A DNA stretch of 32,000 nucleotides from Bacilli bacterium (GTDB lineage: Bacteria > Bacillota_I > Bacilli_A > RF39 > UBA660), in the NCBI GenBank assembly GCA_022009835.1, contig CP091726.1, forward strand, positions 1,163,678-1,195,677, in the 5' to 3' direction. Under the pieces are notes generated by a model. That model did not search any database. It was not told the DNA's origin and saw nothing but the letters and a program-made list of their open reading frames with translations. The position numbers were made by a program, and so were the translations under genes. Each line of letters starts with the position of its first letter. Position 1 is the stretch's first letter. This document shows, in pieces, positions 10,111 through 18,494 of this stretch.

Positions 10111-10403
10111 AAATATAAATAAAATAACATAAAAAGCACCATAATAATAAAGAGGTGTATATATAAATGAATAATAAAATAATAAATAAACTAAAAAGAA
10201 GAAACTAATAATAGTAGTTATATAATTTATAGAGAAAAATATATAAAAAAAATAAAGATAGATATAATATATAACGAAGCATTAACAGATCAAGATAAAA
10301 TGTCTAATTATATATATAGAAGTTTAGACTATATAGATAGCATATATAAAGGAAAAAGATTCATTATATGATGTCATAAAAAAATAACATAAGTAATATC
10401 AAA
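10111..10403 (+). repeat. Direct repeat, left copy: orphan duplicate of the gerA upstream region, RBS and first ~80 codons
   Basis: Aligns end to end with 18204..18494, with only a few substitutions and homopolymer-length differences. Both copies contain AAAGAGGTG-N9-ATG 'MNNKIINKLKRR'. Confidence 0.85.
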
Positions 10404-10435
10404 TTACAAATATAAAGTAGTATATTCTACAAAAA

Positions 10436-10472
10436 TCAAAAAAATCAATAATTTAAACTATTGATTTTTTCT
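10436..10472 (-). terminator. A/T-rich hairpin terminator at the 3' end of the AAA-vWA operon
   Basis: On the minus strand: AAAAAATCAATA-gtttaaat-TATTGATTTTTT. It overlaps the vWA stop codon and is followed by a T-run. It is AT-only and therefore weak. Confidence 0.4.
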
Positions 10473-11980
10473 TGATTTTAATTTTACAATTATATACCCT
10501 TTCAAATTGCTTTTCATCTATATAAATAACCTTGCCACCATTTGGATAAATTTTTCTATTTCCAAATACTATCCATATTGCATTGAGTGGCATACTTGGC
10601 ATTTCAGCGTATCCATCAGTAAATATTATTTTATTTTCTACTCTCTTTGTAAAAGCATTAACAGCTACGTTAAAGTCTGTTCCTCCATAACCTTCAAACT
10701 TCATCTCTTCTATATCCTTCTCAGTTCTAATATCATGAAAGCCATAAAATTCATCATCAAAACATCCTACTTTTACTCTTGAGTGTTTTAATATATTTTT
10801 ACATTCTCTTAAAAAGTTCTTTAACAATACTTCATTTATAGAGCCACTTGTATCAAGTACAATTTCAGTTTCAGGCATTGGCTGTTCCTCTAAATTAGCA
10901 ACTACAACACCATCTTCTAATGTAGCATTTTTATAAGACCAATCAACATCATACTTAATTGCCTCTCTTAAAACATAACGCCAATCAATTAATGGTTTAG
11001 CAGTACCTATATCATTAACTGTTCTAATATCTCTATTCGTTGATGTACCTGCTTGTGATGCTTGTTTTGAAATTGCCTCTTTTAATTCTTCTAGCTGTTT
11101 TTTCTTATCTTCAAGGTTCTTTTTAAAAGCATCTTTTTCTCCCATACTTTCAAGTTCTCCCTGTTTCTTTTCAAGTTCAGTTTTCTCTTTATCTTTTTTA
11201 TCAGTTTTTTCTTGTTGTTCTTTATGTTTTTTTACTGCTTGTTCCCACATACTGTGAGTATCATGCCCAACATCTTGTTTTGATTTATCTTCTTTTTGTG
11301 AATCTTCACCAGATTCACCACCACTCTGTTCTTGTGATTGTTTTTTTTGTTCTTGTGAACTTCCACTACCTGAATTACCTTGCTGTGGTGATTGAGATTG
11401 TTGTTGATTATCACCACTTTGTCCTCCATCACTACTTTGCTGTTTACTTTCTTGATTTTGTGTTTCTCCATTATCTTGTTGTGATTGAGGTTGTTGTTGA
11501 TTATTTCCACCTTGACTACCACCACTACTTTGTTGCTGATTACCTTGTTGATTTTGTTGACTATTACCTTGTCCACTTTGTTGTTTTTTTCTTGTAATAA
11601 TTTTTCATATAATTGTTCAGCATCATAATTAATAGCTTCTGCCATATCAACAACACCTGGTGCCATTTTTAAACCATCTCGTTTTAAAAATTGATTAATA
11701 ACACCATCAGTAGCAATATTCCATAATTCAGGATTCTTACCTTCACTTCTTAATATATGATTGAATGCAATATGACATACTTCATGGGCAAATATAAAGG
11801 TTTGTTCCTCAACACTCAATCCCTCTAAATATTCCGGATTATAATATATTGTTTCTCCATCTGTACCTGCCGTTGGTATATCTTTATTTTCTTTATAACC
11901 TACACTTGCTACTACACTCCCAAAAAAAAGGGATATTTAACAAGCATTTTTCTTTTTAATGCCGCAATATCATATTTCAT
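10453..11980 (-). CDS. HExxH metallopeptidase / vWA-like fusion protein (DUF2201-type); cassette gene E
   Basis: ATG at 11980..11978 follows GAGGTG.
- N-terminus: 'PTAGTDGETIYYNPEY...FIFAHEVCHIAFNH...WNIATDGVINQFL' (HExxH)
- Linker: a long Q/G/S/N-rich stretch
- 'DTHSMW' motif
- vWA domain with the MIDAS motif 'VLDTSGS'

Frame changes are needed at the A8 run 11922..11929 and the T7 run 11584..11590. Confidence 0.8.
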
Positions 11981-11990
11981 AATTTACACC

Positions 11991-12389
11991 TCAAATTCGT
12001 GCAACTAATGAGAATACTTCTTCGCTTATCTTATCTTTATTTATTTCATTTGCAGTAACAAGTATTACACAATTTTTTTTAGGTAATTCAAATGTAGATA
12101 TTTTTCCTATGTTCTAATAATTCGCAAAAACTTTAATTGCTCCTCTTTAGAAATCGAATCAATTTTATCAATTACTAATATTCTACTGGCGTTTGTACTT
12201 AATATTTCATTAAGCCATTTAGGAGGCATAAAATCTGTCCCATCATAATGACCATTTAATTCCTTAACATCAATGTTAGCAGGTAATACAACTGCTCCAT
12301 TTAAGTCTTTACCAGATATAAAATCAACTAATACAGGTGCAACATTTGCTTTAATATATGATAATAATATTTCTTTCTTGTTTTTCCAT
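11991..12389 (-). CDS. small Walker-A-less AAA-like protein (~132 aa); cassette gene D
   Basis: ATG at 12389..12387 overlaps the gene C stop (TAATG). After correcting three +1 breaks in 5-nt homopolymers the product reads 'MENKKEILLSYIKANVAPVLV...MPPKWLNEILSTNASRILVIDKIDSISKEEQLKFCELLEHRKISTFELPKNCVILVTAN...'. This aligns with the Walker-B-to-sensor-1 half of genes A-C but lacks a P-loop. Confidence 0.5.
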
Positions 12390-16212: not shown

Positions 16213-18105
16213 TTTATCACCTTAACTTTTCCCCTAGTTAATTTTGCTTCAGCAATTAATTCAAGTCTTCTTTCATCACCATGACACCATTGTAAGTCAA
16301 ATAAAGTGCAATACTCTTCCCCAAGTACAGACATAATAAAATCTCTTACCTTTATTAAATTATCTTCATCTACTTGTGTTAATCCTATAATTATCGCATA
16401 TTTTTTTGGCTGTATTTAATGAATGCATATCATCAATCGTATAATTATCATCTAAAACATCTTCGAGTGTAATTACTTTTTGATTACAAAATACTGCAAA
16501 CTCTTTTGTTATATCTTCTCCTACTAGACTTCTAAGCATTTCTGGATTACCCGCCTTATAAAGCATTTTTGATGCCATTTCCCATTTTCTCGGATCAGCA
16601 TTTGGTTTTTCTCCATTATATTCACTTCTTAAGGCTTTTTCTCCTTTAAATGCGATGTAAGCATAAATTGCTGGATGAATATTATTTTCGCTTGCCCATT
16701 TTAGCCAATTTTCAGTTGTTGTTTTTATGTAGACATGAGCAAATCTATTAAATAAAGGCTCGGCTAGTTGATTTGCAGCTAACGAATCTTTCATATCATT
16801 ACCTGCTGCTACTATTCTAGCATTATCTGGTAATTTCCATATACCATTTACTTCTCTATCTAATACTATATTAAAGGCTATACCCTGAATACTTGGTAAA
16901 GCATTTGTTATCTCATCAAAGAATACTATGTGTAGTTTATCTGGCTCACTTGTACATTTTTCTTCTATCTTTTTAAGCCAAGAAGGTTTAATATCTATCA
17001 TTTCACCTGTACTTTGATTATAGACACTTTTACCATTTAAACTTTCAGGTGTTGCATTTCTTAAATATATTATTTCACAATTAGGATCTATTTGCTTAAC
17101 TCTAGCAGATTTACCTTCACTAGATGGTCCATGTAAGAATACAGCAACACCACTTTCTATTGCACCTTTAATAATATCCTCTTCACTTACTTCAGTAAAA
17201 TCTAAATTATAAGGATTTTTCTTCAAAGTAGGTCGCTTAACTCTTGTTTCTTTAACTTCTTCTTTTACTTCTTCCACTTTAATAGTTAAAGGTATTTTTA
17301 AATCTGAAATAATATCTGGTAAAAAATAGTTCTTCATAAACATCTTAATATCAGTTTCTTCAAAACTTTCAATACTAGTATCATAATGTGCAAATTGTAT
17401 ACCTGAAAATAATATTCTCTCTGAAATAGCAACATCTGCTTTAACATCTACTAACCAAGTTATTGGCTCAACTTTTATCCAGTATCCAGTTTTAGCCAAC
17501 ACTGTAGAAGAATTGGATAATGTACTGCCTACTGTTCCAACATCTCCTACAACTCTAACATATCTATTTCCATTATATTCATATACATAGTGCTCCTTTG
17601 CTTTAAAGAAACTATCTTCATCTTCTGTAGAAATAGAATCTGTTGTATATTTACCTACAATTTTTAATTTTCCTTTAGAAAATTCATTTTCTAATATGCT
17701 AGATATAACATTAGATGCTGCCATTTGGGGATACATTCCAAAATTAACAGAAATAACTCCATTTTCTAATGAATGATCATTTTCAGTAAATGATTTTATA
17801 CTTAAATATGGTAAAACTACTCTAGAGCCATAAAATCTAAGCCAAGAGTAATCATCATAAGTCGCATCATAGCCATTTATAATTTTAATACGGTGAGTAT
17901 TAATTTCTGTAATTGTTTTAGTCCAATAATACCCTTTATTATATGAAAAAGTAGTAGAATCATCAAAAGGAAGTTCTGTAATTCCACCTAATAAAATAGC
18001 AAAATCACTTATTTCTGCATGTATATGATCAAATTCAAATATCTTCAATCTATTTTCTCCATATATTTGTTCCTCAGTTAAAAAAGTTATATCATCTTTA
18101 TTCAT
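16209..18105 (-). CDS. DUF6273-like x2 / MoxR(AAA_5)-type ATPase fusion; paralog A, with a divergent N-terminal module
   Basis: Start ATG at 18105..18103 follows GGGGGAAG, giving 'MNKDDITFLTEEQIYG' in parallel with B and C. The 597-aa ORF ends early at the T7 run 16401..16407. One nucleotide fewer restores a C-terminus collinear with paralog B ('...GEEYCTLFDLQWCHGDERRLELIAEAKL'), stopping at 16209..16211. Confidence 0.8.
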
Positions 18106-18130
18106 ACATCTTCCCCCACAAGTATCGACT

Positions 18131-18159
18131 ATTATAGCACAATAGATTTTTTTTTGCAA
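18131..18159 (-). promoter_or_regulatory. sigmaA-type promoter of the AAA-vWA operon
   Basis: On the minus strand: TTGCAA, a 17-nt spacer, then TATAAT with the extended -10 (TGcTATAAT). It sits ~25 nt upstream of the gene A RBS. Confidence 0.55.
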
Positions 18160-18203
18160 TCAAATTACAAACATATATAAACCATCACTATAAAATAAGT
18201 ATA

Positions 18204-18494
18204 AAATATAAATAAAATAACATAAAAGCACCATAATAATAAAGAGGTGTATATATAAATGAATAATAAAATAATAAATAAACTAAAAAGAAGAAACTAA
18301 TAATAGTAGTTATATAATATATAGAGAAAAATATATATAAAAAAATAAAAGTAGATATAATATATAACGAAGCATTAACAGATCAAGATAAAATGTCTAA
18401 TTATATATATAGAAGTTTAGACTATATAGATAGCATATATAAAGGAAAAGATTCATTATATGATATCATAAAAAATAACATAAGTAATATCAAA
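18204..18494 (+). repeat. Direct repeat, right copy: functional 5' region of gerA
   Basis: Near-identical to 10111..10403. It is continuous with the gerA body downstream. Confidence 0.85.

What the first reader, a model, noticed from the sequence alone, without database searches (positions are those of the whole stretch)
10111..18494. The cassette is bracketed by ~293-bp direct repeats that duplicate the gerA promoter and 5' end (Campbell-type insertion footprint)
**Seen in the sequence**
- 10111..10403 and 18204..18494 are near-identical direct repeats, differing by a few substitutions and homopolymer lengths.
- Each copy holds the gerA upstream region, the RBS (AAAGAGGTG), the ATG and about 80 codons.
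- Only the right copy continues into the gerA body. The left copy is an orphan 5' stub that ends at the cassette.
- Everything between the repeats, about 7.8 kb, is the AAA-vWA operon on the opposite strand.
- A 13-nt string, ATCAAATTACAAA, straddles the inner edge of the left repeat (10398..10410) and recurs at 18159..18171, just inside the other cassette end. This may be chance in AT-rich DNA or a recombination scar.

**Inference**
- Single-crossover integration of a circular element carrying a gerA 5' fragment would give exactly this layout and would keep one intact gerA.
- Excision by recombination between the repeats would restore a simple locus.
- The orphan gerA promoter would read antisense into the cassette. 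I did not identify a sporulation-sigma (sigmaG/sigmaF) promoter in the repeat, so any sporulation-specific timing of that antisense transcript is only a possibility.
Basis: partly seen in the sequence, partly recalled or inferred. Interest (0 to 1): 0.75.

Follow-up and report, generated by a model that had tools for sequence, protein, structure and literature searches.

The report
gerA-repeat-bracketed strain-variable AAA/VWA cassette
A 7.8-kb gene cassette in an uncultured human-gut spore-former lies between two near-identical 290-bp copies of the start of the germination gene gerAA; other strains of the same species have one copy and no cassette, so the layout is a natural single-crossover insertion footprint and an ordinary kind of event.

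Summary
Window 10111-10403 and 18204-18494 are direct repeats (R): 57 nt upstream of gerAA plus its first 78 codons. The homopolymer differences between them, and the stops in both copies, are sequencing noise. Illumina contigs of the same species show a 290-nt repeat and an intact 81-codon stub.

At least 10 independent gut-metagenome contigs span both copies, so this is not an assembly artefact. Nine long conspecific contigs carry the predicted empty locus: the 157-aa gene, its intergenic region, one R, then intact gerAA, with no cassette.

Empty alleles are more diverse than cassette alleles and never carry the A variant found in most gerA-side copies. This favours gain of the cassette over repeated loss. 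The two copies exchange sequence: 8 of 11 two-copy strains match at internal polymorphic sites, across three haplotypes.

The cassette has no recombinase and no close relatives on phages or plasmids. The number of AAA paralogs varies from 1 to 3 between strains.

A strong bidirectional terminator hairpin follows the stub stop codon, so antisense read-through into the cassette is unlikely.

Five short or looped contigs show the joint expected of a circle or tandem array, but they could be mis-assemblies.

Verdict: a well-documented new example of a known process. Interest is moderate.

The parts
9185..9260 (+). tRNA-His (GTG) and, after it, its terminator hairpin. This is the left limit of the region that differs from the sister lineage L001.
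   Evidence: ARAGORN and Rfam. L001 positions 1-153 match window 9154-9306 at 99%.
9307..9497 (-). VWA' remnant: an internal fragment of a second DUF2201-type VWA gene (about residues 395-484). It is a relic of an older cassette copy and is present in both cassette-bearing and empty strains.
   Evidence: Alignment. The remnant is a 47-aa ORF in L081. It is 87% identical to the cassette VWA and 88-89% to sister-species VWAs.
9522..10004 (-). 157-aa gene (ORFx), a cassette-family gene. It lies directly upstream of AAA1 in the sister species but is separated from AAA1 here. In the window it is broken by homopolymer errors.
   Evidence: Intact in L081. It is 94% identical to the 157-aa gene of L084. 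No Pfam hit.
10005..10110 (.). IG_L: the intergenic region native to the empty allele. It holds the sigma-70-like promoter of the 157 gene (TTGACT-17-TGtTATAAT, minus strand).
   Evidence: Promoter scan of L088, 11 of 12 matches with TG. The same IG_L precedes the single R in 9 empty loci.
10111..10403 (+). R_left: a copy of the gerAA upstream 57 nt, RBS, ATG (10168) and codons 1-78.
10168..10415 (+). Orphan stub ORF. In the true sequence it is 81 codons: GerAA residues 1-78 followed by LQI and a stop. In the window it is interrupted by an extra A.
   Evidence: ORF list for L081. Proteins P0121-P0128 occur on at least 35 contigs.
10398..10410 (+). 13-mer ATCAAATTACAAA at junction J4. It spans the last 6 nt of R_left and the first 7 nt of the cassette flank.
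   Evidence: In L121 both 13-mer copies read TTATAAA in place of TTACAAA.
10432..10479 (.). Hairpin flanked by an A run and a U run, overlapping the VWA stop codon. It is a probable bidirectional intrinsic terminator for both the stub and the VWA gene.
   Evidence: RNA fold: dG -16.7 kcal/mol, z = -5.73, 0 of 200 shuffles as stable. The stem is AT-rich, so the GC-based terminator scan does not list it.
10453..11983 (-). VWA gene: DUF2201_N putative metallopeptidase plus DUF2201 VWA-like domain, with a low-complexity Q/S/G-rich middle. It is 500 aa in L081.
   Evidence: Pfam. Mapping.
11993..12388 (-). Small 130-aa AAA-like protein.
   Evidence: Gene call in L081. Weak Pfam AAA hit. Mapping.
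12389..18107 (-). Three tandem ~1.9-kb paralogs: AAA3 12389-14316, AAA2 about 14310-16215, AAA1 16212-18107. Each is about 630-640 aa, with an unknown N-terminal half and a MoxR-like AAA+ C-terminal half. Copy number varies from 1 to 3 between strains.
   Evidence: - Repeat families.
- Paralog identities of 56-75%.
- Weak AAA_5 hit.
- 26-30% identity to annotated MoxR ATPases.
- Copy-number variation.
18108..18203 (.). IG_R. It holds the AAA1 promoter (TTGCAA-17-TGCTATAAT, minus strand; -35 at 18153-18158), the second 13-mer, and about 32 nt of gerA upstream sequence that resembles L001.
   Evidence: Sequence comparison with L082 and L084. Alignments.
18159..18171 (+). Second copy of the 13-mer ATCAAATTACAAA at junction J5. 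It directly abuts the point where homology to sister-species cassettes stops.
18204..18494 (+). R_right: the functional gerAA promoter region and codons 1-78, continuous with the gerAA body.
18260..21960 (+). gerAA-gerAC-gerAB operon: GerA, Spore_GerAC and Spore_permease proteins. It is intact in clean contigs (480, 394 and 356 aa) and frameshifted in the window by homopolymer errors. The end coordinate is approximate.
   Evidence: Pfam GerA hit. L001 ORF. Gene calls.

Best explanation
**What it is.** The organism is an uncultured, low-GC, spore-forming human-gut Bacilli species related to the CAG:302 / CAG:321 MAGs. Its native locus reads tRNA-His | VWA' remnant <- 157 <- | IG_L | R -> gerAA-gerAC-gerAB.

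**Proposed event.** In one lineage, a DNA segment entered by one homologous crossover within R. The segment carried the AAA1-3 / small / VWA cassette, its AAA1 promoter region (IG_R), and a copy of the gerAA upstream region plus codons 1-78 (R). This is a Campbell-type insertion-duplication by the host's own recombination system, with no dedicated integrase.

**Expected product.** Such an event must give IG_L - R_left (an orphan 81-codon stub) - cassette - IG_R - R_right - intact gerAA, which is what the window shows.

**Behaviour since then.**
- The insertion has been inherited as a presence/absence polymorphism.
- The two 290-nt copies keep recombining, so they stay near-identical through gene conversion.
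- Unequal crossing-over among the tandem AAA paralogs changes their number (1, 2 or 3).
- Recombination between R_left and R_right would delete the unit, or amplify it in tandem.

**Shown:**
- the repeats and their content;
- independent assembly support;
- the empty allele;
- gene conversion between the copies;
- lack of a recombinase in the cassette;
- the terminator hairpin after the stub.

**Inferred:**
- the direction of the event (gain);
- the circular intermediate;
- the illegitimate joint (J4, at the ATCAAA / 13-mer) that closed the circle.
For: 1. **Repeats real and independently assembled.** L081/L088 reproduces window 6128-18257 at 97.8% identity and breaks 54 nt into R_right. Contigs L086, L087, L089, L094-L096, L098, L105, L121 and L126 span both copies.
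2. **Empty allele.** L116-L120 and L122-L125 (21-147 kb contigs from different samples, identical 157-aa protein P0149) have IG_L + one R + gerAA body. There is no extra base at either junction.
3. **Direction of the event.**
   - Empty alleles are more diverse in the gerA flank: 31 differences per 2.5 kb against 12 for cassette alleles.
   - They are basal in an NJ tree rooted at its midpoint, which places the sister-lineage locus L001 outermost.
   - Site c = A occurs in the gerA-side copy of 8 cassette contigs and of the window. It occurs in 0 of 9 empties. About 89% of R x R deletions of the common cassette allele would carry that A.
   - The VWA' remnant, present in both allele types, is as far from the cassette VWA (87%) as from sister-species VWAs (88-89%). 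The cassette is therefore not a fresh copy of the resident relic.
4. **Upstream sequences.** IG_R shares TATAAAATAAGTATA with the sister lineage L001, whereas IG_L does not. This fits R_right's 5' flank arriving with the cassette.
5. **Recombination between copies is active.** Eight of 11 two-copy strains match at internal sites x/a/b, across three different haplotypes.
6. **No site-specific machinery.** No integrase or transposase domain is present in the cassette. Only distant MoxR-like ATPase-domain matches (under 60% identity, none covering 80% of the query) occur on phages and plasmids, and none in IMG/VR.
7. **Possible circle or tandem joint.** Five contigs read IG_R - R - stub.
Against: - No circular molecule, donor genome or read-level evidence has been seen. 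The five IG_R-R-stub contigs are short, of low coverage or de Bruijn loop unitigs, and could be mis-threaded through a repeat longer than the reads.
- In the sister species the 157 gene sits directly upstream of AAA1. Next to 157 here there is a VWA relic. So the cassette family was once resident at this very locus, which also fits an in-situ duplication history.
- With the simplest crossover positions, a Campbell event predicts that site c in R_right comes from the recipient (G). The common A then needs either a crossover in the last 33 nt of R or a later mutation.
- Flank trees are blurred by recombination. L119 is an empty allele nested among cassette alleles, and L118 and L120 share the cassette-linked haplotype.
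- The role of the 13-mer at both cassette edges is not explained by a plain Campbell event.
Confidence: 0.55

Rival explanations
1. **In-situ tandem duplication followed by complementary deletions.**
- The ancestor read tRNA-His | VWA...AAA1 <- 157 <- | IG | R -> gerAA.
- A replication-based duplication copied the whole segment from the VWA 3' flank to gerAA codon 78. The mechanism would be microhomology or template switching at ATCAAA, which copied TTACAAA from 330 nt upstream.
- The left copy then lost AAA...VWA, leaving 157 plus the VWA' relic. The right copy lost 157.
- Empty alleles are later R x R deletions.
For: - In the sister species the order is 157 then AAA1, and the 157 proteins are 94% identical.
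- The 32 nt after the 157 stop codon are conserved with L084 and then run into the VWA' relic, which looks like a deletion scar.
- Each gene is kept exactly once.
- The 7 nt after R_left (TTACAAA) equal the 7 nt after the ATCAAA in IG_R. This resembles a templated insertion of the kind seen at replication-based junctions. In L121 both copies read TTATAAA.
- IG_L and IG_R can be loosely aligned near R.
Against: - Three events are needed, plus strong gene conversion, to keep R at 99-100% identity while VWA' versus VWA is 87% and IG_L versus IG_R is only about 60% alignable.
- Zero of 9 empties carry the R_right-specific A at site c.
- Empties are more diverse and basal.
- VWA' is no closer to the cassette VWA than to sister-species VWAs.
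Confidence: 0.25
2. **The block 10411-18158 is a discrete mobile cassette.** It would be moved by a recombinase or transposase encoded elsewhere, targeting the 13-bp site ATCAAATTACAAA. The R duplication would be a separate, earlier small tandem duplication of the 330-nt unit [IG_R part + R].
For: - Identical 13-mers directly flank the block (p about 0.001-0.007).
- Homology to sister-species cassettes stops exactly at the right-hand 13-mer.
- The two 13-mers covary in L121.
- A tyrosine-integrase / Rep element uses the neighbouring tRNA-His region in L121 and L124.
Against: - The block has no terminal inverted repeats and no recombinase.
- No allele with a tandem R-R and no cassette was seen among 30 or more loci.
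- Six of the 13 nt are simply gerAA codons 77-78.
- The empties have exactly one R preceded by IG_L, not the IG_R unit.
Confidence: 0.07
3. **Assembly artefact.** The duplication would be a mis-join or collapsed/expanded repeat in a noisy long-read assembly.
For: The window clearly carries systematic homopolymer errors.
Against: - The same two-copy layout is found in at least 10 independent short-read assemblies from different studies. These include an NCBI MAG (GCA_037356775.1) and contigs of up to 255 kb.
- The copies carry real, distinguishable variants.
Confidence: 0.01

Closest known systems
Campbell-type (single-crossover) insertion-duplication by homologous recombination, as when a non-replicating circle carrying an internal or 5' gene fragment integrates (established laboratory genetics; my own knowledge)
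   Same: - Direct repeats of the homologous segment bracket the insert.
- One copy is a truncated 5' stub and one complete gene is retained.
- The allele without the insert has exactly one copy.
- No dedicated recombinase is involved.
- Recombination between the repeats reverses or amplifies the insertion.
   Different: - This is a natural event that is polymorphic in a wild gut species.
- The circle and its origin have not been observed.
- The insert is a chromosomal MoxR-like AAA / VWA cassette, not a plasmid.
- The copies show long-term concerted evolution.
Homology-facilitated illegitimate recombination (HFIR) during transformation or conjugation (PMC3240628)
   Same: - Foreign DNA is anchored by one stretch of homology, here the gerAA 5' region.
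- The other joint is illegitimate, at a short microhomology. Here J4 joins gerAA codon 78 to the VWA 3' flank at ATCAAA.
   Different: Classical HFIR inserts linear DNA and usually deletes recipient sequence. It does not duplicate the anchor. Here the anchor is duplicated, which requires a circular intermediate or an unequal exchange.
Gene-intervening elements in sporulation genes (skin in sigK, SPbeta in spsM, gin in gerE; PMC5025042, PMC4191935, PMC5595907)
   Same: An accessory DNA segment sits at a sporulation or germination gene of an endospore-former and is variably present between strains.
   Different: - Those elements split the coding sequence and are excised by a serine or tyrosine recombinase in the mother cell to rebuild the gene.
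- Here gerAA is never interrupted, because its 5' end is duplicated.
- No recombinase is present, and no short att core defines the ends.
MoxR-class AAA+ / VWA partner systems (for example NorQ/NorD, RavA/ViaA; PMC9976466, PMC3893208) and vWA-MoxR conflict systems (PMC7159879)
   Same: - The cassette pairs AAA+ ATPases whose C-terminal halves resemble MoxR ATPases with a VWA-domain protein.
- Paralog number and sequence are hypervariable between strains.
   Different: - The ATPases carry an uncharacterised ~300-aa N-terminal half and fall below Pfam thresholds.
- The VWA protein is of the DUF2201_N (SprT-like metallopeptidase) + DUF2201 type.
- No PADLOC defence model matches.
- The function has not been tested.

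Membership tests
Campbell-type insertion-duplication (homologous single crossover) | The insert is bracketed by direct repeats of a chromosomal segment. | tested here: met
   The repeat is 290-293 nt at 98-100% identity, in the window and in at least 10 other assemblies.
Campbell-type insertion-duplication (homologous single crossover) | One repeat copy is a truncated gene fragment, and the other continues into an intact gene. | tested here: met
   An 81-codon stub on one side and a 480-aa GerAA on the other.
Campbell-type insertion-duplication (homologous single crossover) | Conspecific alleles exist with a single repeat copy, no insert, and colinear flanks on both sides. 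| tested here: met
   Nine empty loci, L116-L120 and L122-L125.
Campbell-type insertion-duplication (homologous single crossover) | A circular intermediate exists that carries the insert plus one repeat copy. | tested here: inconclusive
   Five contigs show the IG_R-R-stub joint, including a 6010-nt loop unitig. All could be assembler mis-threading. No reads were available.
Campbell-type insertion-duplication (homologous single crossover) | The event is independent of an element-encoded site-specific recombinase. | tested here: met
   No integrase, transposase or resolvase domain was found in any cassette ORF.
tRNA-targeting integrative element / genomic island | An integrase gene lies at one end, and direct repeats of the tRNA 3' end form attL and attR. 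| tested here: not met
   - The window's 9261-18203 stretch has no integrase.
- The repeats are gerAA sequence, not tRNA-His sequence.
- A separate integrase/Rep element does occupy this side in L121 and L124.
Sporulation-gene intervening element (skin / SPbeta / gin type) | The host gene is split by the element and is rebuilt only on excision by an element-encoded recombinase. | tested here: not met
   gerAA is complete next to R_right, and no recombinase is present.
Transposon / IS-mediated insertion | A transposase, terminal inverted repeats and a short target-site duplication are present. | tested here: not met
   - No transposase.
- No terminal inverted repeats at 10411 / 18158 among the inverted repeats listed.
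- A 13-bp direct repeat flanks the block, but 6 nt of it are gerAA codons.
MoxR AAA+ / VWA pair (identity of the cassette) | An AAA+ ATPase of the MoxR/AAA_5 class is adjacent to a VWA-domain protein. | tested here: inconclusive
   - The VWA partner passes Pfam thresholds: DUF2201_N at 126 bits and DUF2201 at 51 bits.
- The ATPases fall below threshold: AAA_5 at 15 bits against a cut-off of 22.
- They do align at 26-30% identity with annotated MoxR ATPases.

The most novel reading that the evidence does not exclude
The [R + cassette] unit may be an integrase-free cassette that moves or amplifies by recombination. It would cycle between empty, single-copy, tandemly amplified and excised-circle states through RecA-type recombination at the duplicated gerAA 5' segment. 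That would explain the IG_R-R-stub joints seen in five assemblies. The retained orphan gerAA promoter plus 81-codon stub might also be expressed in the forespore and have its own function, for example a GerAA N-terminal peptide or sporulation-timed transcription at the cassette border.
Probability: 0.1. Interest if true: 0.6.

Novelty: new member of a known kind. Interest (0 to 1): 0.4.

Why it matters
- **A documented natural case.** The locus shows an accessory gene cassette gained, and held as a strain polymorphism, by host homologous recombination alone. A 290-bp duplicated gene start acts as a portable homology arm. The population data show the empty allele, the filled allele, gene conversion between the arms and copy-number change inside the cassette.
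- **Annotation.** The orphan "gerA" ORF next to the cassette is a junction relic, not a gene. The frameshifts in this assembly are errors.
- **Gut microbiome genomics.** The locus marks a hypervariable MoxR-like AAA / VWA-metallopeptidase cassette in an uncultured spore-former. The cassette may be a conflict or defence-type system.
- **Limits.** The finding does not open a long-standing question.

Tried and rejected
- **Alternative genetic code or a decaying genome as the cause of the many broken ORFs.** Rejected. Indels relative to Illumina contigs are almost all 1-2-nt insertions at A/T runs, and the same genes are intact elsewhere.
- **tRNA-His-targeted island with R at its ends.** Rejected. 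Relative to L001 the extra DNA starts right after the tRNA-His terminator, but R_left lies inside it and no integrase is present. Conspecific empties show that the real variable unit is bounded by R.
- **My own idea of an inversion of the gerA-to-PPDK block.** This came from L003/L004 matching window 31174-31279 in reverse. Retracted. The match is a ~105-nt hairpin-rich intergenic repeat, and L003's upstream genes are unrelated 608- and 575-aa ORFs.
- **A second, independent gerA 5' stub in the CAG:321-like species (P0139, P0137).** Rejected. These are contig ends at a polymorphic indel, or a probable chimeric low-coverage contig.
- **Cassette neighbours near gerA in other species.** None of 80 GerA loci from GTDB representatives carries the cassette within 10 kb.
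- **Metagenome scan with the 157-aa protein.** It returned only loci already in hand. The protein search showed that 157 is an ORFan confined to one 90% cluster.
- **PADLOC and NCBIfam.** No hits for any cassette protein.
- **Sporulation-sigma promoter in R.** Only weak hand-matched candidates were found, such as xxATA-17/18-CATAAAA straddling the left edge of R. No tool supports them, so I make no claim.
- **The GC-based terminator scan.** It finds nothing, because the hairpin stem is AT-rich. Folding shows the hairpin clearly.

Full report
**1. The observation**

The repeat finder lists window 10132-10356 against 18224-18449 at 98% identity. A pairwise alignment extends this to 10111-10403 against 18204-18494. 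Each copy holds 57 nt upstream, the RBS AAAGAGGTG, an ATG (10168 / 18260) and gerAA codons 1-78. The right copy continues into a GerA-family gene (Pfam PF03323, E = 1.5e-88). The left copy ends 50 nt before the stop codon of the minus-strand VWA gene.

In the window, both copies read MNNKIINKLKRRN followed by three stops. The "about 80 codons" are therefore not open here.

**2. The window is a noisy assembly**

The window is 25% GC, and most of its genes are fragmented. Against the closest GTDB contig (L001), 44 of 47 indels in 6.4 kb are insertions in the window. Nearly all are 1-2 nt at A or T runs. An Illumina metagenome scaffold of the same strain type (L081/L088) matches window 6128-18257 at 97.8% with 53 gap openings, and every gene on it is intact.

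The clean sequence gives these products:
- AAA1, AAA2 and AAA3 of 631, 630 and 641 aa;
- a 130-aa AAA-like protein;
- a 500-aa DUF2201_N + DUF2201 protein;
- a left-repeat stub that is an intact 81-codon ORF, identical to GerAA through residue 78 and then LQI-stop.

The homopolymer differences between the two copies are noise. The 4 substituted positions are real haplotypes.

**3. Who it is, and what surrounds the repeats**

GerA relatives place the window among uncultured human-gut Bacilli MAGs labelled Clostridium sp. CAG:302, Firmicutes CAG:321 and "Tenericutes" UMGS.

- tRNA-His at 9185-9260;
- an internal fragment of a second VWA gene at about 9307-9497;
- a 157-aa gene at 9522-10004.

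The 157-aa gene is 94% identical to a gene that sits directly upstream of AAA1 in a sister species. In that sister species the cassette lies elsewhere, between SpaA-domain genes, with 1-3 AAA paralogs. None of 80 GerA loci from other species has the cassette within 10 kb.

**4. Independent support for the duplication**

The 81-aa stub protein is in the public protein collection in several near-identical forms on at least 35 contigs. Contigs L086, L087, L089, L094-L096, L098, L105, L121 and L126 come from different studies, and L089 is from an NCBI MAG. Each shows 157 <- | stub -> | VWA <- small <- AAA x(1, 2 or 3) <- | gerAA(480) -> gerAC -> gerAB. In clean sequence the repeat is 290 nt with 1-5 mismatches. 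An assembly artefact is excluded.

**5. The empty allele**

I looked up the exact 157-aa protein (P0149, listed in 123 blocks of the collection). The look-up returned nine long contigs, L116-L120 and L122-L125, in which gerAB <- gerAC <- gerAA is separated from 157 by about 150 nt. Sequence shows IG_L, one R, then the gerAA body, with no extra base at either junction.

The tally of R contexts in all fetched loci is:
- IG_L-stub: 16;
- IG_R-body: 9;
- IG_L-body (empty): 9;
- IG_R-stub: 5.

A sister lineage (L001, 4.5% diverged in the gerA operon) has a third state. Its tRNA-His terminator is joined directly to the gerA upstream region, with no 157, no VWA' relic and no cassette.

**6. Gain or loss?**

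Four observations favour gain.
- In 2.5 kb of gerA operon, cassette alleles differ by 12 sites on average. Empties differ by 31, and the empties are basal and paraphyletic in an NJ tree rooted at its midpoint, which places L001 outermost.
- Site c (offset 260 of R) is A in the gerA-side copy of 8 cassette contigs and of the window. It is G in every stub, in L001 and in all 9 empties. About 89% of R x R deletions of the common cassette allele would carry that A.
- The VWA' relic occurs in both allele types. It is as far from the cassette VWA (87%) as from sister-species VWAs (88-89%).
- IG_R shares TATAAAATAAGTATA with L001, and IG_L does not.

Together these favour a single gain on a chromosome of the empty type. 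Recombination in the flanks blurs the picture (L118, L119 and L120), so loss cannot be excluded.

**7. The copies talk to each other**

At internal sites x/a/b, both copies match in 8 of 11 two-copy strains:
- A-G-AG in both copies in L086, L087 and L089;
- A-T-GA in both copies in L095, L096 and L098;
- T-G-GA in both copies in L121 and L126.

The copies differ at these sites in L094, L105 and the window (for the contigs; for the window). Three different haplotypes shared between copies within genomes is the signature of gene conversion. Homologous recombination between R_left and R_right is therefore active, and crossovers that delete or amplify the unit must also occur.

**8. Mechanism**

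The cassette has no recombinase, transposase or replication gene. On plasmids and phages only distant MoxR-like ATPase-domain matches are found, and there are none in IMG/VR. The ends are defined by homology (R), not by an att core.

The simplest mechanism is a Campbell-type single crossover between the chromosomal R and an R carried on a circularised fragment. That fragment comprised the VWA 3' flank, the cassette, IG_R and R through codon 78. The circle joint is J4, where gerAA codon 78 (ATC AAA) meets TTACAAATATAAAG.

The 13-mer ATCAAATTACAAA recurs at J5. There it directly abuts the -35 box of the AAA1 promoter, which is where homology to sister-species cassettes stops. The chance p is about 0.001-0.007. 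In the divergent strain L121 both copies read TTATAAA. This suggests that the 7 nt after R_left were templated from IG_R when the illegitimate joint formed. A plain Campbell event does not need this, and I cannot fully explain it.

**9. Rival origin**

The alternative is a tandem duplication of an ancestral [VWA...AAA1-157-IG-R] segment, followed by complementary deletions. It explains three things: why 157 and a VWA relic sit left of R_left, why each gene is kept exactly once, and the templated junction.

It also has costs. It needs three events. It needs strong conversion of R alone. It predicts empties that are nested and mostly carry A at site c, which is not what is seen. I give it 0.25.

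**10. Antisense reading**

Seventeen nt after the stub stop (10413-10415) lies a hairpin at 10432-10479. It is flanked by an A run and a U run and overlaps the VWA stop codon. Its dG is -16.7 kcal/mol and z = -5.73, and 0 of 200 shuffles fold as well. It looks like a bidirectional terminator, so transcription from the orphan promoter should stop before entering the cassette. No sporulation-sigma promoter could be established.

**11. Possible circles or tandem arrays**

Five contigs join IG_R to R to the stub end: L092, L093, L131, L132 and the 6010-nt loop unitig L100. That joint is absent from the linear layout and is expected of an excised circle or a head-to-tail amplification. All five are short, of low coverage or de Bruijn loops through a repeat longer than the reads. 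I treat this as a hint that needs read-level testing.

**12. Comparison with known systems, and verdict**

The locus works like laboratory insertion-duplication (Campbell) integration. It shares the one-sided homology anchor and the illegitimate joint with homology-facilitated illegitimate recombination (PMC3240628).

It is not a sporulation-gene intervening element of the skin, SPbeta or gin kind (PMC5025042, PMC4191935, PMC5595907). gerAA is never split and no recombinase is present.

The cargo resembles MoxR-AAA+ / VWA pairs (PMC9976466, PMC7159879). The ATPases fall below Pfam thresholds, and the function is unknown.

It is a well-supported new example of a known process. Interest is 0.4.

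Noticed in passing
whole window, for example 18285, 18496, 18713, 18818; also 8401-9106 and 7111-8276: The window carries systematic 1-2-nt insertions at A/T homopolymers relative to Illumina contigs of the same species. These break gerAA, AAA2, AAA3, VWA, the SDR gene, the PLP-enzyme gene and others. The window is a noisy, probably long-read-only, assembly and not a decaying genome.
   Followed up: yes
window 12389-18107; loci L086-L105, L121, L126-L130: The number of tandem ~1.9-kb AAA paralogs varies between strains. There is 1 in L086 and L094, 2 in most strains, and 3 in the window, L088, L090, L121 and L127. The VWA gene is 414, 500 or 517 aa, and its alleles differ strongly in the 3' part. 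The cassette is far more variable than its flanks.
   Followed up: partly
L121 10784-18374 and L124 10784-16590 (equivalent to the window between about 9300 and tRNA-His 9185-9260): Some strains carry a ~7.5-kb insert of small ORFs between the 157/VWA' relic and the tRNA-His side. It includes a Rep_OBD/RepB_C replication protein and a tyrosine integrase, so it is an integrative element using the tRNA-His region.
   Followed up: partly
L001 1-250 (against window 9154-9306 and 18143 onward): The sister-lineage contig joins the tRNA-His terminator directly to the gerA upstream region. It has no 157 gene, no VWA' relic and no cassette, which makes a third state of this locus.
   Followed up: partly
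window 9307-9497: An internal fragment of a second DUF2201 VWA gene (about residues 395-484) lies between the tRNA-His terminator and the 157 gene. It is a relic of an older resident cassette and is present in both empty and cassette-bearing strains.
   Followed up: yes
L092, L093, L131, L132, L100: Contigs from five assemblies read AAA1 5' end - IG_R - R - stub end - VWA 3' end. That is the joint expected of an excised circle or a tandem array of the unit. They may instead be mis-threaded through the repeat.
   Followed up: partly
window 250-2230: C5 cytosine DNA-methylase fragments (253-1017), an HTH_36 protein (1209-1688) and an unknown ORF lie next to cotE. Other strains (L086 and similar) have infC-rpmI-rplT there. 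This may be another strain-specific insertion.
   Followed up: no
window 31174-31279; L003/L004 9311-9418: A ~105-nt hairpin-rich intergenic sequence between the PPDK and rpsI genes is about 77% identical, in reverse orientation, to the region upstream of gerA in a related species. It is a small dispersed intergenic repeat, not a sign of synteny.
   Followed up: partly
window 11384-11569: A 93-nt tandem repeat (1.8 copies, 81% matches) encodes the low-complexity Q/S/G/N-rich middle of the VWA protein. It probably accounts for the length differences among the 414-, 500- and 517-aa alleles.
   Followed up: no
L117, L120, L123 (between the FMN_bind gene and the 263-aa gene; equivalent to window about 6100-6330): Some strains have an extra 509- or 537-aa gene of unknown function here. 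It is a further presence/absence polymorphism a few kb from the cassette.
   Followed up: no
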